From a virus (lineage: Duplodnaviria; Heunggongvirae; Uroviricota; Caudoviricetes), in IMG/VR virus record IMGVR_UViG_2563366768_000033: DNA of 25,942 nucleotides; one strand, 5' to 3'. Both the position numbers and the translations under genes were made by a program. Shown piece after piece: positions 4,459 to 17,893 of this stretch. The first letter of the stretch is position 1. Each line of letters starts with the position of its first letter. The notes below the pieces were generated by a model. That model was not told where the DNA came from and made no database searches. It saw only the letters and a list, made by a program, of their open reading frames with translations.

Positions 4459-4752
4459 ATGGTTCGTGCAAACAAACGCAACGAGGCTCTACGAATCGAG
4501 AGTGCGTTGCTTAACAAAATCGCAATGCTTGGAACTGAGAAGACAGCGGAAGCTGTGGGAGTTGATAAGTCGCAGATCAGCAGGTGGAAGAGAGACTGGA
4601 TTCCAAAGTTCTCAATGCTGCTTGCTGTTCTTGAATGGGGGGTCGTTGACGACGACATGGCTCGATTGGCGCGACAAGTTGCTGCGATTCTCACCAATAA
4701 AAAACGCCCGGCGGCAACCGAGCGTTCTGAACAAATCCAGATGGAGTTCTGA
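4459..4752 (+). CDS. cII: CII transcriptional activator (97 aa)
   Basis: ATG at 4459 gives MVRANKRNEALRIESALLNKIAMLGTEKTAEAVGVDKSQISRWKRDWIPKFSMLLAVLEWGVVDDDMARLARQVAAILTNKKRPAATERSEQIQMEF, i.e. lambda CII; the ORF track's upstream extension (4399) is not used. Confidence 0.95.
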   Translation: MVRANKRNEALRIESALLNKIAMLGTEKTAEAVGVDKSQISRWKRDWIPKFSMLLAVLEWGVVDDDMARLARQVAAILTNKKRPAATERSEQIQMEF

Positions 4753-4774
4753 GGTCATTACTGGATCTATCAAC
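4697..4774 (-). ncRNA. oop: oop antisense RNA (about 77 nt) overlapping the cII 3' end
   Basis: Minus strand from 4774 reads GTTGATAGATCCAGTAATGACCTCAGAACTCCATCTGGATTTGTTCAGAACGCTCGGTTGCCGCCGGGCGTTTTTTATT, matching recalled lambda oop with its GC hairpin and U-tract terminator. Confidence 0.75.
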
Positions 4775-4784
4775 AGGAGTCATT

Positions 4785-5707
4785 ATGACAAATACAGCAA
4801 AAATACTCAACTTCGGCAGAGGTAACTTTGCCGGACAGGAGCGTAATGTGGCAGATCTCGATGATGGTTACGCCAGACTATCAAATATGCTGCTTGAGGC
4901 TTATTCGGGCGCAGATCTGACCAAGCGACAGTTTAAAGTGCTGCTTGCCATTCTGCGTAAAACCTATGGGTGGAATAAACCAATGGACAGAATCACCGAT
5001 TCTCAACTTAGCGAGATTACAAAGTTACCTGTCAAACGGTGCAATGAAGCCAAGTTAGAACTCGTCAGAATGAATATTATCAAGCAGCAAGGCGGCATGT
5101 TTGGACCAAATAAAAACATCTCAGAATGGTGTATCCCTCAAAACGAGGGAAAATCCCCTAAAACGAGGGATAAAACATCCCTCAAATTGGGGGATTGCTA
5201 TCCCTCAAATTGGGGGATTGCTATCCCTCAAAACAGGGGGACACAAAAGACACTATTACAAAAGAAAAAAGAAAAGATTATTCGTCCGAGAATTCTGGCG
5301 AATCCTCTGACCAGCCAGAAAACGATCTTTCTGTGGTTAAACCGGATGCTGCAATTCAGAGCGGCAGCAAGTGGGGAACAGCAGAAGACCTGACCGCCGC
5401 AGAGTGGATGTTTGACATGGTGAAGACCATCGCGCCATCAGCCAGAAAACCGAATTTTGCTGGGTGGGCTAACGATATCCGCCTGATGCGTGAACGTGAC
5501 GGACGTAACCACCGCGATATGTGTGTGCTTTTCCGCTGGGCCTGCCAGGACAACTTCTGGTCCGGTAACGTGCTGAGTCCGGCCAAACTCCGCGACAAGT
5601 GGACCCAGCTCGAAATCAACCGTAACAAGCAACAGGCAGGCGTGACAGCCAGCAAACCAAAACTCGACCTGACAAACACTGACTGGATTTACGGGGTGGA
5701 TTTATGA
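4785..5707 (+). pseudogene. O: lambda O replication initiator, frameshifted inside the ori iteron region
   Basis: N-terminal part (MTNTAKILNFGRGNFAG...ISEWCIPQNEGKSPKTRDKTSLKLGDCYPS) is in frame 0 and stops at 5393 after reading through unrelated sequence. The C-terminal O sequence (SKQGDTKDTITKEKRKDYSSENSG...DWIYGVDL) continues in frame +2 to the stop at 5705-5707. The shift coincides with a 23-bp tandem duplication at 5177-5222. Confidence 0.85.
5133..5240. repeat. ori-lambda iterons: five 18-bp O-binding repeats (5133, 5153, 5177, 5200, 5223) where lambda has four; third unit duplicated
   Basis: ATCCCTCAAAACGAGGGA, ATCCCCTAAAACGAGGGA, ATCCCTCAAATTGGGGGA (twice, each with TTGCT spacer = exact 23-bp tandem repeat 5177-5199/5200-5222), ATCCCTCAAAACAGGGGGA, followed by the AT-rich ori segment. 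Confidence 0.85.
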
Positions 5708-6015
5708 AAAACATCGCCGCACAGATGGTTAACTTTGACCGTGAGCAGATGCGTCGGATCGCCAACATCGATAACCAGGACATGACGATATCGGTCTGGG
5801 TCTTTCCTGATACTGATATTTCAGATGTATCGCGTGAGTTAATTGCGGCAATTAAACAGGGGTATCTAACAGTAAAAGCCGCCGGGGTATGGGCGGGGGG
5901 CATTGAAACACCTTCGGTGGAAACTCCATCGGAAGGCTCTAAATTTTTTGGTTTTGATATGGATAACGAATTCATCAGTGGTTTTGATGTAGGGGCATGG
6001 GGAGTATTACTCTGA
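5704..6015 (+). pseudogene. P: lambda P replication protein, first 21 codons, fused at a deletion junction to the 3' end of an unrelated (tail-module) reading frame
   Basis: ATG overlaps the O stop (ATGA) as in lambda; product begins MKNIAAQMVNFDREQMRRIAN (lambda P N-terminus) then switches to IDNQDMTISVWVFPDTDIS... and stops at 6013-6015. Confidence 0.7.
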
Positions 6016-6725
6016 TGGCGAAAAATGACTTTAAAGCGTTTGCAACTGATCGAAATGCCAATGTTATGTCGCAGGAGGAATGGGAAGCGTTGCCTGCGCT
6101 TATATCCGGATTTACAGCAGGGAAAGCATCCAGTGCGCAAGTCAATAAGGTTATTCGGCAGGCCAGCTTTATTGCTGCAGCTCTGGCCCAGTTTGTAAGT
6201 GATAAAACGCAACGGGATGTGCTTGATAATGGTGATCTGCCCGGTTTTGTTGAATTGCTGGGATCGGGGTTTGCTGTTGAATACCTGAGCCGCAAGAATC
6301 CGTTTGGCGATATCAAATCGGACGGCACGGTGAAAACGGCTCTTCAAAACCTTGGTTTGGGAGAAGCGGCAAAACGGGATGTGGGGACAGGGGAAAATCA
6401 GATACCGGACATGGCCTCTTTTGCCAGTGGTAATGGATGGATGAAATTACCCAACGGGAAAATCCTGCAATATGGTCGTGGTGCGGTTACGCCGACATTA
6501 TCGACGCAAACAATGAGAATTACATTCAGCATCCCTTTCCCCAAAAAAGCGGACTGCGCCATGCTTACTCATTCTGGTGATGGCGGTGCGCCTTTAGGCG
6601 CTGGGCGAGGGTTCGTGATGACTGCAGAAGGCCCAACGTTAACCGGCTTTAATTCTGCTTACAGAACGTCATCAACCAGCGACACGGTATCGATGAATTA
6701 CAGTTGGTGGGCTGTTGGTGAGTAA
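6015..6725 (+). CDS. side tail fibre protein, variable C-terminal segment (StfP-like); alternative start 5997
   Basis: Product [61 protein letters not shown]... is characteristic of e14/Mu/P1-type tail fibre variable regions; followed by a tail-fibre assembly gene and an inverted second set. Confidence 0.7.
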
Positions 6726-6736
6726 TTTTATTCAGG

Positions 6737-7189
6737 GTGATTTATATGGACGAATATGTTTATAGCGCAAGGCATAATGCTTTTTTCCCTGTGGATATGA
6801 TTGATAAATATAAATCAGAGGGATGGGATTTATCAGACGCTAAGGAAGTAAATCAAAATATTATCAGTGAGTTTATGGCTGAACCGCCACAAGGAAAAAT
6901 CCGTATTGCCGGAGATGATGGGCTGCCTGCGTGGGCAGATATTCCTCCACCCACGCATGAAGAGCTTATTGAAATTACTGAATCAGAAAGACAGCTACTA
7001 ATTAACCAGGCCAACGAATACATGAACAGTAAGCAATGGCCCGGTAAAGCGGCTATTGGTCGTCTGAAAGGTGACGAACTGACGCAATATAATTTGTGGC
7101 TGGATTATCTGGACGCACTGGAGCTGGTCGATACTTCCGGTGCGCCAGATATTGAATGGCCTACGCCTCCGGCAGTTCAGGCCAGATGA
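6737..7189 (+). CDS. tail fibre assembly protein (Tfa)
   Basis: 150-aa ORF directly after stf; C-terminus ...LTQYNLWLDYLDALELVDTSGAPDIEWPTPP is the conserved Tfa tail, mirrored by the convergent paralogue at 7161-7754. Confidence 0.8.
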   Translation: MIYMDEYVYSARHNAFFPVDMIDKYKSEGWDLSDAKEVNQNIISEFMAEPPQGKIRIAGDDGLPAWADIPPPTHEELIEITESERQLLINQANEYMNSKQWPGKAAIGRLKGDELTQYNLWLDYLDALELVDTSGAPDIEWPTPPAVQAR

Positions 7190-7754
7190 CATCCGGCGCG
7201 GTGCTGGTATCTGTTGCCGTCACCGCGTCAATGTAATCCAGCACGGCGTTAAGTCGGGTTGTTTCTGCCTGAGTCAGTTTCCGTCCGGCCTGTAACTTCA
7301 GCTGAATCAGACTAATGGAAGCCATTGCTGCATCAATCAGTGATTGGCGCTGTGCTTCTGCCGCGTCTACTGCGGCACTGTGTTGTGCCTCAGTGTCTGT
7401 CACCCATTTCTCACCATCCCATTTATCGTATGGCGTTAACGGTGAAATCGTGACATAACCGTCTTTGATGGCACCGATATAATCCACTGTAACAGCTGCG
7501 CCATTTTCGATTGAGTAAACAGTCTCATTGCGATGGTCTTCTTCATGGCTCCATCCCTTACCTGTAAATACTGCCACTCTTCCCGGAATGTTTTCGCCAG
7601 GGTCAATACCAGTGGAACAGGCGGGCATACTTACGCCAGTATTAATATATTCATCAGACCAGCCCGTATACTCAGATGTTTCAGCATCATAATAAAAACA
7701 ACGCATATCGCCCGGCACTGTAGCCAGCCCATTTTCATCAAAAACAGGTTTCAT
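7161..7754 (-). CDS. tail fibre assembly protein, alternative copy (TfaE-like) in inverted orientation
   Basis: 197-aa ORF MKPVFDENGLATVPGDMRCFYYDAETSEYTGW... ending ...LNAVLDYIDAVTATDTSTAPDVIWPELPEA; convergent and overlapping with the plus-strand tfa, as in G/P invertible segments. Confidence 0.8.
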   Translation of the reverse strand: MKPVFDENGLATVPGDMRCFYYDAETSEYTGWSDEYINTGVSMPACSTGIDPGENIPGRVAVFTGKGWSHEEDHRNETVYSIENGAAVTVDYIGAIKDGYVTISPLTPYDKWDGEKWVTDTEAQHSAAVDAAEAQRQSLIDAAMASISLIQLKLQAGRKLTQAETTRLNAVLDYIDAVTATDTSTAPDVIWPELPEA

Positions 7755-8251
7755 TATTTAGCCCTCACCAGAAAGTTAAATGCAATATTTCGCGGTCTGA
7801 CTGCAACAAAATTCACACCATCACCCACAGAGTTACTGGTGAAATTAAATCGTGAAAATCCTGGCTGATTTCCGGCGATGCCATCATGAAAGTTAATTGC
7901 GTGTCCCGCACCTTCGCCTATATTCCCGGCAAACTGAGAAAAGTTTGTAGCTGCCTGCCAGCTTAATAATTCGCGACCACCGTCTGCACCTCGCCCGTCA
8001 TCCCAGATACGAATGAAATCACCGCGGGCTTCAGGTAATACCAGCGAAGGAAACACTTTCGCCAGCACAGGATAATCAGTGGCAGAGAATTTCGCGCCGT
8101 TGAACTTCAAAAACACCATACAGGACCAGCTGTCGATTACAGTATTTGGCATTGCAGCGGACGGCCAGAAGAACGGAACGCCAATAGCTGGAGCACCTTC
8201 TCCCAAACCAACGTTTATGAAAATGCAGAAATAACGAGCAAATGGCATCAT
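7754..8251 (-). CDS. alternative tail fibre C-terminal segment (StfE-like), currently in the off orientation
   Basis: 165-aa minus-strand ORF abutting the pin upstream region with no constant tail-fibre N-terminal part attached; position equivalent to stfE of e14. Confidence 0.65.
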   Translation of the reverse strand: MMPFARYFCIFINVGLGEGAPAIGVPFFWPSAAMPNTVIDSWSCMVFLKFNGAKFSATDYPVLAKVFPSLVLPEARGDFIRIWDDGRGADGGRELLSWQAATNFSQFAGNIGEGAGHAINFHDGIAGNQPGFSRFNFTSNSVGDGVNFVAVRPRNIAFNFLVRAK

Positions 8252-9904: not shown

Positions 9905-10486
9905 CTTTATCAATGACTTATCTCCCGACTTCCCGTCTTGCTTTTCCTAAACAGAACAATCGTAGAATATTCTTGAAGGGTTAGATCGTCACTGTTTTCT
10001 GTTCGATACTGTGACATTCAGCACTTGATTCGCTATGGATCTGACAGGAAGGTTTTGAGCGAAAATCTGCAGTTATTCAGTCGTTTTCTTATCGGTCACC
10101 ATTATTCTTTTAGACATTGATCCTACAAAGCTGCCGCAAAGTTGGTGGTGGGAACTGAAGTTGCGTAGAGAAGGGGTCAATACCCGGAGGCAAACATGGG
10201 CTGGCAAAAGTGTAGCGGTATTAGGCGCAGCTATTTAGCCTAGTTATGTTTTATGAAAACTTGATATCATATAAGTGTCTTACTTATTGGCTGTAAATAA
10301 GTTTTTCCTAAGGAATTGTTTCTTGAGTATCATTTGTAACTGTAACGGAATTTATAATCCTTTGCTTTATTGTTACGGTATTTTTTATCACACCCTATTT
10401 TTAGTGGTTTTTTATACTGAAGTTTGGCAAAGTGAACTTTATATACATATACTTCATCCTGGTTTCAGTTAAATTGGGGGGATGAT

Positions 10487-11230
10487 ATGGCAACTACATG
10501 TTCAGTTATATTGATTTTGGAGTCCTTTGATGTTTATTTCGGAAAAGAGAGTGTGTTTCTGGAGAGAGGTTCATCTGTACTTGTCGACTCTAGCTCTAGA
10601 GATTTTTTCCTGACATATCCTGAAAGAGTGATAGTGGCGGATTTTGGCGCTGAGTTTATTAGTCGCTATTTGAAAGCTAATAACTTAAGGGATATTTCTG
10701 ATTGTAGGGAATATCCATCTTATTTAAAAATAAACTTTGCTGACTTCAGTTTAATTAAAGGATTAATTAGTTGGGCTAATCACTGTGCTGAATACATAGA
10801 AATTTTTGATGAGTCTATTGCTTTTACATGTCTCTCTGCATTTTCTTCTGAAAAACAATTTGGAGTATTTCTGTTTGGATGTTTGAAAAGCACAGGGGCT
10901 AAAGTTAAAACGATTATTCATACGGATTTATCTGCACCATGGCGTCTTAAGGATATATCATCAAGATTATATCTCAGCGAAAGTTTACTAAAGAGGAAAT
11001 TGAAAGAAGAGGGGGTATCATTCAGTAAGATCATACTTGATGAGAGGATGCAAATGGCTGAATATTTACTCAGCACTCGTTGTTATCCTATTAGTAAAGT
11101 AGCTAAGGTCTGTGGTTATGCCAGTGTCTCATACTTTACTTATGTATTTAGACGTTATTTTGGTGTTTCTCCAAGTCAATACTCTCAGAGGAGTTCAGAA
11201 AGTAAAATTCTTACTCACCAGGGAATCTGA
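10487..11230 (+). CDS. AraC/XylS-family transcriptional regulator (AppY/Rns-like)
   Basis: 247-aa product with C-terminal dual HTH (WRLKDISSRLYLSESLLKRKLKEEGVSFSKIILDERMQMAEYLL...KVAKVCGYASVSYFTYVFRRYFGVSPSQY); AT-rich gene and upstream region; GGGGG Shine-Dalgarno before the ATG. Confidence 0.75.
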   Translation: MATTCSVILILESFDVYFGKESVFLERGSSVLVDSSSRDFFLTYPERVIVADFGAEFISRYLKANNLRDISDCREYPSYLKINFADFSLIKGLISWANHCAEYIEIFDESIAFTCLSAFSSEKQFGVFLFGCLKSTGAKVKTIIHTDLSAPWRLKDISSRLYLSESLLKRKLKEEGVSFSKIILDERMQMAEYLLSTRCYPISKVAKVCGYASVSYFTYVFRRYFGVSPSQYSQRSSESKILTHQGI

Positions 11231-11271
11231 TCATTGTTCTTGCCCCCTTATTTCCAGACAGGGGGGGTATC

Positions 11272-11720
11272 TTAAGTTAACGTTACCCGCTGACGTCGAT
11301 ATTCTCGCGGAGAGCGATAACCCAACGCACTGTGCGGATGGTTTTCATTGTAATGTTCGATCGCCACTGCAAGATTATGCAATGCCGTTCTTACATTCGG
11401 TTTCGGCATGAACGCGATGTAGTCTTCCTTCATCGTTTTCACGAACCTTTCTGCAATTCCATTACTCTGAGGACTGCTGATTGCCGTTGTGCAGGGCTCC
11501 AGATTCAACTCTCTGGCGAACTGCCGTGTTTCATGCGCTCTATACGCTGAACCGTTATCTGTCAGCCACTGGATGGACTGTTCCGGTACTTTATCGCCAA
11601 AGCGTTTTTCTATCGCTCCTAACATGACATCCTGCACTGTCGCTTTATCGTAACCTCCCGTGCTTGCGGCCCAGTCTATGGCTTCACGATCGCAACAGTC
11701 CAGGGCGATTCATCTGGGCC
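11272..11720 (-). mobile_element. IS2-family (IS3 group) transposase orfB, 3' fragment only
   Basis: Minus-strand translation ...[72 protein letters not shown]...[14 protein letters not shown] parallels the C-terminal integrase-core region of IS2 InsD as recalled; no orfA, no 5' half and no terminal inverted repeats seen. Confidence 0.7.
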
Positions 11721-12192: not shown

Positions 12193-13374
12193 ATGCCTTT
12201 AAACGATATGCAGATTCGCCGCGCTAAGCCTGAAGCTAAAGCCTATACATTTGGAGATGGGCTAGGGTTGTCATTACTTATAGAACCTAATGGAAGCAAG
12301 AGTTGGCGGTTCCGCTATCGCTATGCCGGCAAACCCAAAATGATCTCGCTTGGTGTTTACCCAACGATCACCCTTGCCGATGCTCGTTCCCGTCGTGATG
12401 AAGCTCGAAAACTTGTGGCAGAAGGAAAGAACCCTAGTGAGGTTCGAAAAGAGCAAAAGCTAGCTATGCAAACAGAGTCAGAGAACGCCTTCGAAAAGAT
12501 AGCCAGAGAGTGGCATCAACTTAAATCTGCTAAATGGTCGGCGGGATATGCATCAGACATCATGGAAGCGTTTAAGAACGACATTTTTCCTTATGTCGGA
12601 ACAAGGCCTGTGGGAGAGATTAAACCGCTAGAGCTGCTGAACGTTCTGCGTAAAATTGAGAAACGTGGTGCGTTGGAGAAAATGCGCAAAGTGCGGCAGC
12701 GTTGCTCCGAAGTGTTTCGCTACGCAATTGCAACGGGTAGGGCGGAGTACAATCCTGCGGCTGATCTCTCCAGCGCTCTCGAAGTACACCAATCCAATCA
12801 TTTCCCATTCCTAAAAGCTGATGAGATACCTGATTTTCTACGTGCCTTAGAGGGTTACTCCGGGAGTAAGCTTGTCCAGATAGCCACGAAATTACTGATG
12901 ATTACGGGTGTGAGAACCATCGAATTACGCGCGGCATTATGGCAAGAATTTGATCTGGATAACGCTATTTGGGAAATTCCTGCTGAAAGGATGAAAATGC
13001 GTAGGCCACATCTTGTGCCCTTATCATCTCAAGCGGTAGATTTACTCAATGAACTCAAGATCATGACAGGGAACTATCGTTATGTTTTTCCAGGGCGGAA
13101 CGATCCGAATAGGCCAATGAGCGAAGCGAGTATAAATCAAGCCATTAAGCGTATTGGGTATGGAGGAAAAGTCACTGGACATGGTTTTCGTCATACCCTT
13201 TCTACAATCCTGCATGAGCAAGGTTTTGAGAGTGCTTGGATTGAAATCCAGTTGGCTCATGTAGATAAAAATTCTATTAGGGGGACTTATAACCATGCTC
13301 AATATTTTAGTGGAAGGAAGTCTATGATGGACTGGTACAGTAATTTGATATTTGAAAGACTAAAAAGGAGTTAA
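12193..13374 (+). CDS. P4-family tyrosine integrase
   Basis: From ATG at 12193: MPLNDMQIRRAKPEAKAYTFGDGLGLSLLIEPNGSKSWRFRYRYAGKPKMISLGVYP... (P4/CP4-57-type N-terminus) with C-terminal catalytic region HGFRHTLSTILHEQG...RGTYNH; the ORF track's upstream extension is not used. Confidence 0.9.
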   Translation: MPLNDMQIRRAKPEAKAYTFGDGLGLSLLIEPNGSKSWRFRYRYAGKPKMISLGVYPTITLADARSRRDEARKLVAEGKNPSEVRKEQKLAMQTESENAFEKIAREWHQLKSAKWSAGYASDIMEAFKNDIFPYVGTRPVGEIKPLELLNVLRKIEKRGALEKMRKVRQRCSEVFRYAIATGRAEYNPAADLSSALEVHQSNHFPFLKADEIPDFLRALEGYSGSKLVQIATKLLMITGVRTIELRAALWQEFDLDNAIWEIPAERMKMRRPHLVPLSSQAVDLLNELKIMTGNYRYVFPGRNDPNRPMSEASINQAIKRIGYGGKVTGHGFRHTLSTILHEQGFESAWIEIQLAHVDKNSIRGTYNHAQYFSGRKSMMDWYSNLIFERLKRS

Positions 13375-13377
13375 TTT

Positions 13378-13794
13378 GTGTCTCAACCACTTTCGGAAAT
13401 ATTGACATGGGATGATGAACAATGGGAGGTATTTGTCCATGATTGGCTTATTGTCTGTAAATCAGATGATTACCCGTGGAGCGAACGTTTGGGAGGAGCT
13501 GGAGATAAAGGTAGAGACGTTGTTGGATATAAATCGGATCCTAACGTAGAAGGTTATTCTTGGGATAATTATCAATGCAAACTGTACAAAAAAAGTTTAG
13601 GGTTCTCTGATGTTGTAGTTGAGTTTGGAAAACTTATCTATTTTACTCTGAATGGTGATTATCCCATCCCTCAGAAGTACTTTTTTGTGGCACCCTATGA
13701 TTTATCTACTACATTTTCTAATTTATTGAAAAATAAAAACGAGCTTAAAAAAGCAGTCCTTGATTCATGGGATTCAGCAATTTCAAAAAAATAA
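13378..13794 (+). CDS. cargo gene 1, N-terminal part: Mrr-like PD-(D/E)xK nuclease domain (frame broken at A7 tract 13785-13791)
   Basis: GTG start 7 nt after AAGGAG (13365-13370) and 4 nt after the int stop; product contains GGAGDKGRDVVGY...(17 aa)...YQCKLY, the GxGDxGxD / QxK pattern of Mrr-type nuclease cores. Very AT-rich. Confidence 0.6.
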   Translation: MSQPLSEILTWDDEQWEVFVHDWLIVCKSDDYPWSERLGGAGDKGRDVVGYKSDPNVEGYSWDNYQCKLYKKSLGFSDVVVEFGKLIYFTLNGDYPIPQKYFFVAPYDLSTTFSNLLKNKNELKKAVLDSWDSAISKK

Positions 13795-14384
13795 CTAAAA
13801 AGATTGATATTCCATTAGATGATGAAATAAAAAAATATATTGAGGATTTTGATTTTAGTATTTTTTACTCTCTACCCTTATCATTGATTTTAAATGATAT
13901 TGCAAATACACACCTTTATTTTAAGTACTTTAACGAGCTGTATGTCGTGAGAATCCCTCCAAATGAAATTCCAACATACAATTCAAAAAAAGAGTCTGTA
14001 TATGTTAATGCACTGCTTCAAGCCTATTCAGAGCATGGAAATAAAACTTATAGTTCTTTCTTAGAGCTTGATGATCCATACAGACGACACTTTAATAATA
14101 GTAGAAATGATTTTTATTTTGCATCTTCGCTTGAGGTTTTTGTCCGCGAAGTATTTAAAGATGATGTATTCAAAGCATTGAAATGTTACATTTCATCTTC
14201 AATTGAACCCGTCTTTTATGAAGACCATAATTATGCATTTATTAGGTGTAATGCAGTCTTGAAGCAGGCTGTTCTGACACCAATTGCACATTCAGTACTA
14301 TCAAAAATATGTGAAGCAAATGATAAAAAAGGAATATGCCATCATTTGGTTAATGATGGTGAAGTAATTTGGACGGTGAGATAA
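13767..14384 (+). CDS. cargo gene 1, C-terminal part (unknown domain); probably the continuation of 13378-13794
   Basis: This frame is open from 13764 and overlaps the previous ORF's end across an A7 run; one extra A would join them into a single ORF of about 336 codons. Stop TAA at 14382-14384 overlaps the next ATG. Confidence 0.55.
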   Translation: MGFSNFKKITKKIDIPLDDEIKKYIEDFDFSIFYSLPLSLILNDIANTHLYFKYFNELYVVRIPPNEIPTYNSKKESVYVNALLQAYSEHGNKTYSSFLELDDPYRRHFNNSRNDFYFASSLEVFVREVFKDDVFKALKCYISSSIEPVFYEDHNYAFIRCNAVLKQAVLTPIAHSVLSKICEANDKKGICHHLVNDGEVIWTVR

Positions 14385-14842
14385 TGGTTAGAATTTATAA
14401 TTCAAGTTTAGAAGTGGCATGTCGAATGGCGAAAGTGCTCGTCGCTATTTATCCTTCTTCATTAAGCCTTGAACGGCTTATTTGTTTTGATTTTATTTTA
14501 GTAAATCTTAAGGATTTTTTACCTGAAGAGATTAGTCTTCATCCTCCAATACCCCGTAGAGATGCTCAGTTAGCCCTAAAACGAGAGATTGTTTTAGAAT
14601 CATTGGCTTTGTTGCAAGGCTATGAACTAGCCTCAAAAATTTATACACATCGTGGTTTTGTATATAAAGCTTCTGAAAAAACATATGCATTTACAAATTC
14701 TCTACATAATGAATATGTTGCGCAGATGGAGCATAATATAAATTTGGTGGTTAAGTTATATAGTGATATTCCTGATGAGCAGTTGCAATCAATTATAAAA
14801 AATAAAATTGGCAAATATGATATGGAATTTAATTATGAATGA
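14384..14842 (+). CDS. cargo gene 2: small protein (152 aa), predicted mostly helical; candidate middle component
   Basis: ATG at 14384 overlaps the upstream stop (TAATG); product MVRIYNSSLEVACRMAKVLVAIYPSSLSLERLICFDF...; its stop overlaps the next gene's ATG (ATGAATGA). Confidence 0.6.
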   Translation: MVRIYNSSLEVACRMAKVLVAIYPSSLSLERLICFDFILVNLKDFLPEEISLHPPIPRRDAQLALKREIVLESLALLQGYELASKIYTHRGFVYKASEKTYAFTNSLHNEYVAQMEHNINLVVKLYSDIPDEQLQSIIKNKIGKYDMEFNYE

Positions 14843-15467
14843 CAATTTTTTTACGTTCAGAAAAATAAAGGTAACCGGATTCAATAAATTAGATGCTATA
14901 ATTGAATTTGGTTCTAAATTGACTATTTTATATGGTGGTTCTGACTCTGGAAAAACATACATATATTATTTGATTCGATATTTATTAGGGAGTGAAAAAC
15001 TAAAAAATAAAGATATCGATCATGCTCAAGGTTATGATTTAGCCTATCTGGAATTTAATTTTCAAGGTAGGGTAATGACAATTGAGAGGTCTCTTCAGGA
15101 TAGCGCCCATTACAGATTATATGATTCGAGCATTGAAAATGTTAGTGAAGCTAATCTGTTGATGGTTTTTTCCAAAAGTGCTTCGTCTAAAAAGAGTTTT
15201 TCATCATACTTTTATGGTAGGTTGAATTTCAAAGAGGCTAAAGTAAGAACAAACTTAAGTAATACTCTTCATAAATTTAATCTTAATAATGTTTTTGAAT
15301 TTTTTTGTATTGATGAATTAAGAGTGTTAACTGAGAAGTCGTTAATTCTTTCTGATATTCCTAGCGAGGAGACAAAAAGAAAGTCTGAATTTAAATTCCT
15401 TTTAACTCAGAGAGATGATACTAACTCCTTAGCAGAAAAACCAAATAAAAAAGCAAGATATTTTTAA
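14835..15467 (+). CDS. cargo gene 3, N-terminal head of an SMC/Rad50-like ABC ATPase (Walker A); ends at an in-frame TAA
   Basis: MNDNFFTFRKIKVTGFNKLDAIIEFGSKLTILYGGSDSGKTYIYYLIRYLLG: classic SMC/RecF-type N-terminus with Walker A GGSDSGKT. The ORF stops at TAA 15465-15467 inside a T5A7 tract while the same frame stays open downstream. Confidence 0.7.
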   Translation: MNDNFFTFRKIKVTGFNKLDAIIEFGSKLTILYGGSDSGKTYIYYLIRYLLGSEKLKNKDIDHAQGYDLAYLEFNFQGRVMTIERSLQDSAHYRLYDSSIENVSEANLLMVFSKSASSKKSFSSYFYGRLNFKEAKVRTNLSNTLHKFNLNNVFEFFCIDELRVLTEKSLILSDIPSEETKRKSEFKFLLTQRDDTNSLAEKPNKKARYF

Positions 15468-16088
15468 AAAAATCAAATTGCAAATATTTATGAGGAATTG
15501 AAAGCGCAATTAATTTATCCTGAATATGATCAAGTCATTGTTTCAAGAGAACTTGAGAAAGTAGAGCAAGATATTGAATCATCGAAAGATATATTGAAAG
15601 GTATTGTTGATGCACTTGATGATAAGAAGCAATTATTAAAAGAGTTAAGTGATGAATTATATTCAATCAGTGACAGGGAAAAATACTTATCATTACTCAT
15701 TGAAAGATTTAGTCTTCTTAAAGACCAATACTTTATAGATCTACAAAGAATAGATGTTGTATCACAGGCGAATTTCTATTTAAATAATTTTGCAGATATT
15801 TATTGTGAGTTCTGTAATACACCGCAAAAAAAAGAAAATGAAATATCATATGATGATTGTTTTTTGTCGTGTAATGCAGAAAAATTGAAAATCAAAAGCC
15901 AGCTGAAAGGATTAATTGAATCAATCGGATCTAATGTTCGCGAACATGAATTAATTATGTTAAGAAAAAATGATGTTAATGAAATTTATCAATCAGAAAA
16001 AAGTGATTTTAAGACGTTAGAAGATAAAAATATAAAACAATACATTCATCTCTTGAATCACTTTATGAATATAAAGACAATCTTTTAA
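15468..16088 (+). CDS. cargo gene 3 continued: coiled-coil segment with CxxC...CxxxC zinc-hook-like motif
   Basis: Same frame as 14835-15467, open right after the TAA, with no ATG for about 150 codons (the ORF track uses TTG at 15498). Heptad-like charged/leucine-rich sequence and YCEFCN...(14 aa)...CFLSCN (15804-15872). Confidence 0.55.
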   Translation, partial: KNQIANIYEELKAQLIYPEYDQVIVSRELEKVEQDIESSKDILKGIVDALDDKKQLLKELSDELYSISDREKYLSLLIERFSLLKDQYFIDLQRIDVVSQANFYLNNFADIYCEFCNTPQKKENEISYDDCFLSCNAEKLKIKSQLKGLIESIGSNVREHELIMLRKNDVNEIYQSEKSDFKTLEDKNIKQYIHLLNHFMNIKTIF

Positions 16089-16654
16089 TGGATCACACAA
16101 AACATAGCATTCTATCTTCATTACAAGATAAAGAAGATGATGTTGACGAACTTAAATACTCCGCCGAGGACTTTGACTCCTTAACAGTAGCTGATTTGTA
16201 TGATATAGAAATAGCGATGCAAGACTTTTTGAATGATATAAATTTTGAAAATTCTAAAGATAACAAAGTGCGATTTGACGAAGATACATATGACTTTAAT
16301 ATCAATGGGAAACGCCGAGGAATGTTTGGTAAAGGTACCCGTGCAGTAATGCATGCTATATTTACCATTTGCTTTGCGGAATTTTTATCAAGAAAAGGGA
16401 ATCCATTCATTGGATTTGTTGTGCTTGATAGTCCATTAGTGACGCACTTTGATAAAGATAGAGGGGGTTCTCTATCGGATGTTAATAGCGTCAGTCTCAG
16501 TGATTCATTTTATCACGCATTAATCAAAAGGGACTATAATTTCCAGATTGTAATTCTTGAGAATAAAGGTCCGACGTTCCAAATAAAAATTAATGATGCA
16601 AATAAAATCCATAACTTAAATAAGAATGGAAGCTCTGGTTTTTATCCTGTTTAA
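16088..16654 (+). CDS. cargo gene 3, C-terminal ABC head segment (Walker B-like FIGFVVLDSP), separate ORF or frame-shifted continuation
   Basis: ATG overlaps the upstream stop (TAATG); product contains ...GKGTRAVMHAIFTICFAEFLSRKGNPFIGFVVLDSPLVTHFD, i.e. a run of hydrophobics ending in D as in Walker B, with Ser where the catalytic Glu normally sits. Confidence 0.55.
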   Translation: MDHTKHSILSSLQDKEDDVDELKYSAEDFDSLTVADLYDIEIAMQDFLNDINFENSKDNKVRFDEDTYDFNINGKRRGMFGKGTRAVMHAIFTICFAEFLSRKGNPFIGFVVLDSPLVTHFDKDRGGSLSDVNSVSLSDSFYHALIKRDYNFQIVILENKGPTFQIKINDANKIHNLNKNGSSGFYPV

Positions 16655-17063: not shown

Positions 17064-17336
17064 TCAGACAGGAATTTGCTGACGGCTTGACAGCTTTGAC
17101 GCGGAGCCATAGCGATTGAGAGTTTGCTGTTGTTTTTCCGGCATTTGTGCTTTCTCTGATTCCTGTTCATTGCGCCGGGGCTTCATGATTATCGTATCCA
17201 CACTTTCCAGTGCGGTAAATGTGTAGGAACATTCAAGATTCTGGCACTGATACCATGAGCGTTTAACCGATGGTGCTTCATAGGCGGAGGTTCTGGCGTG
17301 TGCCGTCGTACCGCATTCGGGACATTTAAGTGCCAT
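17064..17336 (-). CDS. Ogr/Delta-family zinc-finger late-gene activator (90 aa)
   Basis: MALKCPECGTTAHARTSAYEAPSVKRSWYQCQNLECSYTFTALESV: CxxC...CxxxxC arrangement and sequence typical of P2 Ogr / P4 Delta. Confidence 0.85.
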   Translation of the reverse strand: MALKCPECGTTAHARTSAYEAPSVKRSWYQCQNLECSYTFTALESVDTIIMKPRRNEQESEKAQMPEKQQQTLNRYGSASKLSSRQQIPV

Positions 17337-17341
17337 TAATA

Positions 17342-17893
17342 TTACTCCTGCATGCCGTTAATGTAATCCAGACGTTGCTGAAAGCGCAGTTGTTGTGCAG
17401 GGGTGTAAGAGCTCTGGCAATCACGAACCATCATGGGGTCAGGCATCACACCGGATTCATCCAGAATCATACGATAATCCCCGGCAATTTCAGGCGGTGT
17501 TATTGCCAGCTGGCGAACCAGAGCATTGCGTAATATACGGGACGCAACGTCAACCCCTCCGCGCCCCTTCAGGAACGGAGCCAGTGCAGATGTCAGGGCT
17601 GCTCCATTCGCCTGCATAAAATTGCTGAGAGCGTCTTCTGTGCAGGCCTCCATCAGTTGATGCTGCGAGTAAATGCATTCGCGCGCAGCACAGTTAATTT
17701 GCCATTTCAGCACATCCAGATGTTCCCGCTGTAATTCGAGCTGTCGAGCATAATCTGCTGGTTTTTCCATGGCAGTGAGGAGTGATTCTATCTGTTGTTC
17801 AACGGCTTTTCGGCTCTCACTATGTCCAGCCCACAGAATACGGGCATTTCTAAAACTGATAAGCGCTTGGTCTGGAGTGACTCGGGCCATCAT
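17342..17893 (-). CDS. Psu-like protein (P4 polarity suppression / capsid decoration family)
   Basis: 183-aa product with ...DVLKWQINCAARECIYSQHQ...NFMQANGAALTSALAPFL, resembling recalled P4 Psu (...VRKWQVNQAAGRYI...DFMQQHGTALAAALAP...); start overlaps the upstream gene's stop (ATGA). Confidence 0.7.
   Translation of the reverse strand: MMARVTPDQALISFRNARILWAGHSESRKAVEQQIESLLTAMEKPADYARQLELQREHLDVLKWQINCAARECIYSQHQLMEACTEDALSNFMQANGAALTSALAPFLKGRGGVDVASRILRNALVRQLAITPPEIAGDYRMILDESGVMPDPMMVRDCQSSYTPAQQLRFQQRLDYINGMQE

What the first reader, a model, noticed from the sequence alone, without database searches (positions are those of the whole stretch)
15804..15872. Cys4 zinc-hook-like motif in the middle of the ATPase coiled coil
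Within the helical, heptad-like segment the sequence YCEFCN-(14 aa)-CFLSCN provides four cysteines in a CxxC...CxxxC arrangement. Rad50/SbcC uses a CxxC hook at the coiled-coil apex for zinc-mediated dimerisation. A Cys4 knuckle at the same place would argue that the ATPase is Rad50-like rather than a plain SMC hinge, and would give a testable site for mutagenesis.
Basis: inference. Interest (0 to 1): 0.45.

Follow-up and report, generated by a model that had tools for sequence, protein, structure and literature searches.

The report
Known Lamassu zinc hook, decayed gene
The four cysteines are real, but only the first pair (CxxC) is conserved: it is the already published Rad50-type zinc hook at the tip of the coiled coil of the Lamassu anti-phage ATPase LmuB, here in a copy that is a dead pseudogene in E. 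coli O157:H7.

Summary
The sequence YCEFCN-14 aa-CFLSCN is present at 15804-15872 (+), in the middle ORF of a broken ATPase gene. That gene is LmuB, the SMC/Rad50-like subunit of a short Lamassu (ABC-3C) anti-phage system, LmuA-LmuC-LmuB. It sits in the int-psu hotspot of the P4-like prophage Sp2 of E. coli O157:H7.

- **First pair (C324/C327):** Cys in 183 of 183 relatives, down to about 19% identity, with consensus C-P-h-C-G. A profile aligns it to the DCPMCG hook of the solved Salmonella LmuB (9hqu). In AlphaFold models it lies in the 20-residue loop joining the two long antiparallel helices.
- **Second pair:** not a ligand pair. Position 342 is never Cys in relatives (I/V/L/Y/F). Here it is a lineage-specific TAT→TGT change. 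Position 346 is Cys in only 48% of relatives and A/V/S/I otherwise, as expected of a helix-packing position.

So there is no Cys4 knuckle. It is an ordinary two-cysteine hook that presumably shares one zinc between two protomers, as in Rad50. The "Rad50-like, not hinge" reading is correct but already published for LmuB. The gene is inactivated (nonsense plus frameshift; LmuA also frameshifted) in 309 genomes. Low interest.

The parts
15804..15815 (+). CxxC zinc-hook motif of LmuB (C324-E-F-C327)
   Evidence: Both Cys are invariant in 26/26 and 183/183 homologues, with consensus C-P-[LVI]-C-G. A profile aligns the motif to DCPMCG of the solved Salmonella LmuB 9hqu_A. It lies in the apex loop in AF2 models.
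15858..15860 (+). C342 codon (TGT): lineage-specific Tyr-to-Cys substitution, not a conserved ligand
   Evidence: Cys in 0/183 homologues; the position is I/V/L/Y/F. The codon is TAT (Tyr) in the 87%-identical Proteus mirabilis gene. The Cys is also present in the O55:H7 copy.
15870..15872 (+). C346 codon: semi-conserved Cys at a small or hydrophobic helix position
   Evidence: Cys in 88/183 homologues, otherwise A 31, V 20, S 16, I 13. It lies in the second turn of the descending helix.
15531..15788 (+). Ascending coiled-coil helix (aa 233-318) of LmuB
   Evidence: DSSP on the AF2 model of P0001 gives H233-318 with pLDDT mostly above 90. The window-fragment model gives H22-106, which equals aa 233-317.
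15789..15848 (+). Apex loop (aa 319-338) carrying the hook
   Evidence: Non-helical in both models, with a beta-bridge at aa 323/330 and pLDDT about 60-77.
15849..16150 (+). Descending coiled-coil helix (aa 339-439), interrupted by the frameshift
   Evidence: H339-439 in the P0001 model. Coordinates after 16030 allow for the 1-nt deletion.
14835..16654 (+). lmuB pseudogene (606 aa when repaired): ABC ATPase head, coiled coil, hook
   Evidence: The three fragments hit PADLOC LmuB model PDLC03863 over profile positions 3-608 of 610. Intact 606-aa homologues exist: P0001 at 87% and P0002 at 75% identity. Sakai annotates ECs_0293 as a pseudogene.
15465..15467 (+). In-frame TAA nonsense codon (codon 211)
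   Evidence: The codon is TTA (Leu) in E. coli O55:H7 USDA5905 and in Proteus mirabilis. The same reading frame runs on both sides of it.
16026..16030 (+). A5 run: 1-nt deletion that frameshifts lmuB at codon 399
   Evidence: Frame 0 matches the homologue up to EDK and frame 2 matches it from KYKTIHSS. Proteus has A6 here.
13378..14384 (+). lmuA pseudogene (335 aa when repaired; restriction-endonuclease-like N-terminus plus ABC-3C CTD6), frameshifted in the A7 run 13785-13791
   Evidence: PADLOC LmuA model PDLC03852 matches the two ORFs at profile positions 10-140 and 141-333. Pfam CTD6 matches at E about 1e-29. The intact homologue in Proteus is 335 aa.
14384..14842 (+). lmuC (ABC-3C middle component 2), apparently intact, 152 aa
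   Evidence: Pfam MC2 at E 6e-30 and PADLOC LmuC at E 2.5e-36. RefSeq annotation agrees. The Proteus copy is also 152 aa.

Best explanation
The segment is the apex of the coiled coil of LmuB, the Rad50/SbcC-like ABC ATPase of a short (three-gene, LmuA-LmuC-LmuB) Lamassu / ABC-3C anti-phage system. The system is carried in the int-psu defence hotspot of a P4-like satellite prophage (Sp2 of E. coli O157:H7).

The functional element is the single CxxC (C324, C327) in the loop that reverses the coiled coil. By homology with Rad50 and with characterised LmuB proteins, two protomers each give two thiolates to one shared zinc ion, joining the tips of the two arms into a dimer. LmuC and the C-terminal domain of the effector LmuA dock next to this tip.

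The second 'pair' is not part of the site. Position 346 is a small or hydrophobic helix position that happens to be Cys in about half of the family. C342 is a private Tyr-to-Cys change of this lineage.

In this genome the whole system is a fossil. lmuB carries a nonsense codon and a frameshift, and lmuA carries a frameshift, so no hook is made.

Shown here: motif, conservation, apex position, family assignment, pseudogene state. Inferred: zinc binding and zinc-mediated dimerisation.
For: **Family**
- PADLOC LmuA, LmuC and LmuB models match at E 1e-36 to 1e-50. Pfam finds ABC-3C CTD6 and MC2.
- Foldseek top hits are type II Lamassu LmuACB and Salmonella LmuACB chains (E 4e-15 to 1e-13), followed by Rad50.

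**Hook**
- C324/C327 are invariant in 183/183 relatives, with median identity to the query of 23% and consensus CPxCG.
- The HMM alignment places the pair on DCPMCG of 9hqu_A.
- It lies in the 20-aa loop between helices 233-318 and 339-439.
- Literature: many LmuB homologues carry a CPxCG-like zinc hook (PMC10586767). The Salmonella LmuB hook is needed for phage protection, and the hooks of the two protomers are juxtaposed next to LmuA and LmuC (10.1101/2025.03.14.643221). Short LmuB carry 0, 1 or 2 CxxC (PMC12663957).

**Second pair**
- Position 342 is Cys in 0/183 and position 346 in 88/183. Codon 342 is TAT in Proteus against TGT here.

**Pseudogene**
-.
- The sequence is at least 99% identical in 309 genomes, and every listed record annotates the gene in pieces.
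- The intact operon in Proteus mirabilis encodes 335, 152 and 606 aa.

**Context**
- int, ogr/delta, psu and sid flank the cassette. The P4 int-psu hotspot is described in PMC9122126.
Against: - Zinc has not been seen directly in any LmuB. Both cryo-EM studies say local resolution was too low (10.1101/2025.03.14.643221; 10.1101/2025.06.23.660979).
- Vibrio cholerae LmuB lacks the hook and still forms a dimer (PMC12663957), so the hook is not the only dimer contact in the family.
- The local motif C-E-F-C-N departs from the CPxCG consensus. Glu is seen at this position in 6/183 and Asn in 11/183.
- The apex loop has only moderate model confidence, pLDDT about 60-77.
- No dimer model or atomic distances could be obtained here.
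- C346 is Cys in nearly half of the family, more often than any other single residue, so a secondary role is not excluded.
Confidence: 0.85

Rival explanations
1. One reading: the four cysteines of one protomer form an intramolecular Cys4 zinc knuckle or ribbon at the coiled-coil apex.
For: Four of the protein's six Cys lie within 23 residues (P about 0.002 by chance). A small beta-bridge is predicted around the CxxC. Some short LmuB clades are reported to carry two CxxC copies (PMC12663957).
Against: - C342 is Cys in 0/183 relatives and Tyr in the closest intact ones.
- C346 is replaced by Ala/Val/Ser/Ile in 52% of relatives.
- No alternative fourth ligand is conserved. Position 343 is His in only 10/183.
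- Only 1 of 184 sequences has a second CxxC near the apex.
- Residues 342 and 346 are spaced i/i+4 on a helix at positions otherwise hydrophobic, which is typical of core packing.
Confidence: 0.03
2. The conserved CxxC is mainly a structural element of the docking platform for LmuC and the LmuA C-terminal domain. It would shape the apex loop, with or without metal, and would not be the dimerisation device.
For: - In solved Lamassu complexes LmuA-CTD and LmuC bind at the hook region (10.1101/2025.03.14.643221; PMC12663957).
- Hook-less V. cholerae LmuB still dimerises (PMC12663957).
- The hook-proximal residues R291, L295, Y299, D302, R305, E349 and L360 are as invariant as the ATPase motifs.
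Against: The two hooks are juxtaposed in the LmuB dimers of two independent structures (10.1101/2025.03.14.643221; 10.1101/2025.06.23.660979). The CPxCG consensus is that of Rad50 hooks (PMC10586767). The two roles are not mutually exclusive.
Confidence: 0.1
3. The cysteine cluster has no present function in this genome, because the gene is a pseudogene and the extra Cys is neutral drift.
For: There is a nonsense codon and a frameshift in lmuB and a frameshift in lmuA. C342 occurs only in this decayed lineage.
Against: This is compatible with the best explanation and is part of it. It describes the state in O157:H7, not what the motif is. The CxxC itself is under strong constraint across the family.
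Confidence: 0.8

Closest known systems
LmuB of short (type II) Lamassu / ABC-3C systems, e.g. Salmonella enterica LmuACB (PDB 9hqu/9hqx) and the E. coli 'Ec-Lipase' Lamassu
   Same: It has the same ABC head, roughly 100-residue antiparallel coiled coil and CxxC hook architecture. The operon has the same LmuA-LmuC-LmuB order. Walker A is GxxxxGKT and Walker B is hhhhDS, as reported for short LmuB. The profile match to 9hqu_A has E 2e-17 with hook aligned on hook. Foldseek gives E about 1e-13 to 4e-15.
   Different: It shares only about 14% identity with the solved chains. It is shorter, at 606 aa against about 630-660 aa. The hook reads CEFCN instead of CPxCG. The partner modules are CTD6 and MC2 with a restriction-endonuclease-like effector, not Cap4 or lipase. 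This copy is a pseudogene.
Rad50 / SbcC zinc hook
   Same: A CxxC lies at the turn of an antiparallel coiled coil that emerges from an ABC ATPase head. The ATPase head is Rad50-like. The presumed mechanism is one zinc shared by two protomers.
   Different: The coiled coil is much shorter. No Mre11/SbcD partner is present; the partners are LmuA and LmuC. The biological role is anti-phage abortive infection rather than DNA repair. About 11 extra loop residues follow the CxxC before the helix resumes.
Vibrio cholerae DdmC (LmuB of DdmABC)
   Same: It is the same system type: short Lamassu with LmuC.
   Different: DdmC has lost the CxxC hook (PMC12663957). The clade of the window's LmuB keeps it in every member sampled.
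SMC / MukB hinge proteins
   Same: ABC head plus coiled coil.
   Different: There is no hinge domain. Only 20 residues connect the two helices.

Membership tests
Lamassu LmuB (ABC-3C ATPase) | Sequence match to LmuB profiles over the full length | tested here: met
   PADLOC PDLC03863 matches the three fragments at E 8e-50, 2e-21 and 5e-37, covering profile positions 3-608 of 610.
Lamassu LmuB (ABC-3C ATPase) | Operon partners LmuA (effector plus ABC-3C CTD) and LmuC (middle component) | tested here: met
   LmuA PDLC03852 and Pfam CTD6; LmuC PDLC03871 and Pfam MC2. The genes are directly upstream with overlapping stop and start codons.
Lamassu LmuB (ABC-3C ATPase) | Fold similar to solved LmuB: head, folded-back coiled coil, apex | tested here: met
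   The AF2 model of the 87%-identical P0001 has mean pLDDT 86. Its top Foldseek hits are 9uxh_F, 9hqu and 9hqx LmuB chains.
Lamassu LmuB (ABC-3C ATPase) | Intact, expressible gene giving phage defence | tested here: not met
   There is a TAA at codon 211 and a 1-nt deletion at 16026-16030, and lmuA is also frameshifted. This is a pseudogene member of the family. Defence itself is not testable here.
Rad50/SbcC-type zinc hook | Conserved CxxC | tested here: met
   Both Cys are present in 183/183 relatives.
Rad50/SbcC-type zinc hook | Located at the turn of an antiparallel coiled coil distal to the ABC head | tested here: met
   Loop 319-338 lies between H233-318 and H339-439.
Rad50/SbcC-type zinc hook | Binds one Zn2+ between two protomers and mediates dimerisation | not testable with these tools
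   No multimer or metal prediction was available. Zinc density is also unresolved in the published LmuB maps (10.1101/2025.03.14.643221; 10.1101/2025.06.23.660979).
Rad50/SbcC orthologue (DNA-repair complex) | Mre11/SbcD nuclease partner and long coiled coil | tested here: not met
   The neighbours are LmuA and LmuC, not SbcD. The coiled-coil arms are about 85-100 residues.
Intramolecular Cys4 zinc knuckle/ribbon | Four conserved metal ligands in one chain | tested here: not met
   Position 342 is Cys in 0/183 and position 346 in 88/183.
SMC hinge proteins | Globular hinge domain between the coiled-coil arms | tested here: not met
   Only a 20-residue loop lies between the arms.

The most novel reading that the evidence does not exclude
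In the roughly half of this LmuB clade that carries Cys at position 346, two helical turns below the hook, that third thiol might have a real role. It could be an alternative or exchangeable zinc ligand, or a redox-sensitive switch that alters hook geometry and so the release of LmuA. That would be a variation on the Rad50 hook. The extra C342 in the O55:H7/O157:H7 lineage would then be an accidental fourth thiol next to it.
Probability: 0.05. Interest if true: 0.35.

Novelty: already known. Interest (0 to 1): 0.1.

Why it matters
It matters little beyond annotation.

- The result places ECs_0290-0293 of E. coli O157:H7 Sakai (prophage Sp2) as a decayed short Lamassu system.
- It identifies the LmuB hook residues (C324/C327) for this CTD6/MC2 clade.
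- It shows that a CxxC...CxxxC pattern in a single sequence can mislead. Only conservation separates the real two-cysteine hook from incidental cysteines.
- Anyone wishing to study this clade should use the intact Proteus mirabilis or Pantoea alhagi operons, not the O157:H7 copy.

Tried and rejected
- NCBIfam gave no meaningful hit for any fragment.
- phmmer of the repaired LmuB against PDB sequences found nothing at E ≤ 0.01. Only the profile of homologues reached the solved LmuB chains.
I therefore modelled the intact 87%-identical P0001 and the window's own in-frame fragment 15468-16040.
- Model coordinates are not exposed, so Cys-Cys distances could not be measured. No dimer or zinc prediction was possible.
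- A search for an intact copy among 5,426 complete E. coli genomes found none listed. All 310 matching records are at least 99% identical, and every record listed annotates the gene in pieces. The O55:H7 copy lacks the nonsense codon but has a further 1-nt deletion.
- I considered sequencing error as the cause of the frameshifts in A-runs. I rejected it because the same sequence recurs in 309 independent complete genomes.
- I considered a second CxxC copy, reported for some short LmuB (PMC12663957). Only 1 of 184 sequences in this clade has one.

Full report
**1. The observation.** In the frame of ORF 15498-16088 (+) the codons at 15804-06, 15813-15, 15858-60 and 15870-72 are all TGT. The peptide reads ...ADIY-C-EF-C-NTPQKKENEISYDD-C-FLS-C-NAEK.... 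The coordinates and the CxxC-14-CxxxC spacing are therefore correct. The repaired protein has six cysteines in 606 residues. Four of six within 23 residues would occur by chance with a probability of about 0.002.

**2. The gene.** The ORF is the middle piece of a broken gene. The three consecutive ORFs 14808/14835-15467, 15498-16088 and 16088-16654 match one PADLOC LmuB model (PDLC03863) over profile positions 3-199, 231-412 and 428-608 of 610.

The two ORFs upstream (13378-13794 and 13767-14384) are the two halves of LmuA. They match PDLC03852 at positions 10-140 and 141-333, and Pfam finds ABC-3C CTD6. ORF 14384-14842 is LmuC, the ABC-3C middle component 2. The cassette has about 30% G+C against about 50% around it.

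It lies between a P4-type integrase and ogr/delta, psu and sid. This is the int-psu defence hotspot of P4-like satellites (PMC9122126). The DNA is 100% identical to prophage Sp2 of E. coli O157:H7 Sakai and EDL933, where the ATPase (ECs_0293) is annotated as a pseudogene.

**3. State of the gene.** Three lesions are present.
- The first break in lmuB is an in-frame TAA at 15465-67. The codon is TTA (Leu) in E. coli O55:H7 USDA5905 and in Proteus mirabilis.
- The second break in lmuB is a 1-nt deletion in an A-run, A5 at 16026-16030 against A6 in Proteus.
- lmuA has a 1-nt deletion in the A-run 13785-13791.

Repair gives proteins of 335 and 606 aa. These are exactly the lengths in the intact Proteus mirabilis operon, which encodes 335, 152 and 606 aa. 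The matching sequence is at least 99% identical in 309 of 5,426 complete E. coli genomes, so the lesions are real and fixed rather than sequencing errors. The O55:H7 copy lacks the nonsense codon, shares both frameshifts, and has one further deletion.

**4. Conservation of the four cysteines.** A first alignment of 26 proteins, with 21-87% identity to the query, showed C324 and C327 invariant. C342 was replaced by Tyr in the closest relatives, and C346 was conserved only in the enterobacterial clade.

I then searched 1.84 billion cluster representatives with the profile. This gave 4,484 hits at E ≤ 0.001. I aligned the best 150 plus the earlier set, 183 relatives in all with median identity of 23%.

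| Position | Residue here | In 183 relatives |
|---|---|---|
| 324 | Cys | Cys 183/183 |
| 325 | Glu | Pro 132 |
| 326 | Phe | L/V/I/F |
| 327 | Cys | Cys 183/183 |
| 328 | Asn | Gly 153 |
| 342 | Cys | Cys 0/183 (I 60, V 38, L 33, Y 32, F 14) |
| 346 | Cys | Cys 88, A 31, V 20, S 16, I 13 |

The consensus C-P-h-C-G is the "CPxCG or similar" hook described for LmuB (PMC10586767). Codon 342 is TAT in Proteus and TGT here, a single transition. Only 1 of 184 sequences has a second CxxC near the apex.

**5. Position in the structure.** The AlphaFold2 model of P0001 (87% identical, intact) has mean pLDDT 85.9. It gives helix 233-318, a non-helical stretch 319-338 with a beta-bridge at 323/330, and helix 339-439. 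The window's own in-frame fragment (aa 212-402) gives the same picture: helices 233-317 and 340-397, with loop pLDDT about 60-77.

The CxxC is thus in the loop that reverses the coiled coil, and there is no room for an SMC hinge. Residues 342 and 346 are spaced i/i+4 in the first two turns of the returning helix, at positions that are otherwise hydrophobic or small.

**6. Relation to solved structures.** The profile hits "DUF3732 domain-containing protein" 9hqu_A at E 2e-17, with the CxxC aligned on its D-C-P-M-C-G. Foldseek identifies 9hqu and 9hqx as Salmonella enterica Lamassu LmuACB. It ranks LmuB chains first (E 4e-15 to 1e-11), then Rad50, then SMC heads.

For that Salmonella system the authors report three things. 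LmuB has a zinc-hook dimerisation domain. The hooks of the two protomers are juxtaposed next to LmuA-CTD and LmuC. Protection against phage required a functional LmuB zinc hook. The zinc ion itself could not be resolved (10.1101/2025.03.14.643221).

A Bacillus LmuB has a canonical hook, 285-CQYC-288, at the distal end (10.1101/2025.06.23.660979). A family-wide survey found that long LmuB always have one CxxC, that short LmuB have zero, one or two, and that V. cholerae LmuB has none (PMC12663957). The window's LmuB fits the "short" class, with 606 aa and Walker B VVLDS of the hhhhD[Q/S/T/E] type.

**7. Mechanism.** The most likely account is as follows. In an intact homologue two LmuB chains are joined at their tips by one zinc held by C324/C327 of each chain, as in Rad50. 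The apex and the adjoining coiled coil hold LmuC and the CTD6 domain of LmuA, keeping the nuclease-like effector monomeric and inactive. DNA-end sensing by the ATPase heads then releases it, following the model of the cited Lamassu papers.

The motif, its conservation, its apex position and the family assignment are shown here. Zinc binding, dimerisation and the docking role are inferred by homology. In O157:H7 none of this happens, because the genes are broken.

**8. Novelty and verdict.** The zinc hook of LmuB is published, and the Rad50-like nature of LmuB is established. The distinctive part of the finding, a Cys4 knuckle, does not survive comparison with homologues, and the locus is a pseudogene. 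The finding is ordinary and already explained, so interest is low. The only residual open point is why Cys is the commonest residue (48%) at position 346. I give a real metal or redox role about 5%.

Noticed in passing
window 13378-16654: The whole Lamassu cassette is decayed by three small lesions: A8→A7 in lmuA (13785-13791), TTA→TAA in lmuB (15465-67) and A6→A5 in lmuB (16026-16030). The sequence is at least 99% identical in 309 complete O157:H7/O55:H7 genomes. The O55:H7 copy lacks the nonsense codon but has an extra 1-nt deletion at about 15997. The order of decay can therefore be read: the frameshifts came first, and the nonsense codon arose later on the O157:H7 side.
   Followed up: yes
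window 15705-15749 and 15879-15914 (aa R291, L295, Y299, D302, R305; E349, L360): The hook-proximal coiled coil carries residues as invariant as the ATPase motifs (178-183 of 183 relatives), including an invariant Glu (E349) three residues after C346. They may form inter-helix salt bridges or the docking surface for LmuC and LmuA-CTD6. This could not be checked without coordinates.
   Followed up: partly
window 13378-13794 (LmuA N-terminal part): The effector half of LmuA has no Pfam hit, but it shows a D-x-GRD ... Q-C-K pattern reminiscent of a PD-(D/E)xK / Mrr-like restriction-endonuclease fold. The effector type was not established.
   Followed up: no
window 12193-13374, 17064-18642, 20888-23278: The P4-like satellite backbone is present: integrase, ogr/delta-like zinc-finger activator, psu, sid and alpha-type primase. 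This is prophage Sp2 of O157:H7 Sakai, with the tail end of lambda-like prophage Sp1 and an IS3-family remnant upstream.
   Followed up: partly
window 23411-24367 (-) and 10000-11300: There are two further low-G+C stretches (about 31% and about 36%) with ORFs of 318 aa and 247 aa. The 247-aa ORF (10487-11230) is annotated as a transcription regulator in Sakai. The first lies beyond the primase and might be other accessory cargo of the satellite.
   Followed up: no
E. coli O157:H7 strains M1300706002, 6535NalR and 6535WT (hits H1-H3): In a few strains the cassette is additionally interrupted by an IS1203 (IS3-family) insertion, which is further evidence that it is not under selection.
   Followed up: no
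L003/L004 (Proteus mirabilis), 4543-7821: An intact lmuA-lmuC-lmuB operon (335, 152 and 606 aa) lies next to a DUF927 primase-like gene, an rve transposase and a phage integrase. It is on a different mobile element from the E. coli P4-like satellite. In one of the two assemblies' gene calls LmuA is listed as only 145 aa.
   Followed up: partly
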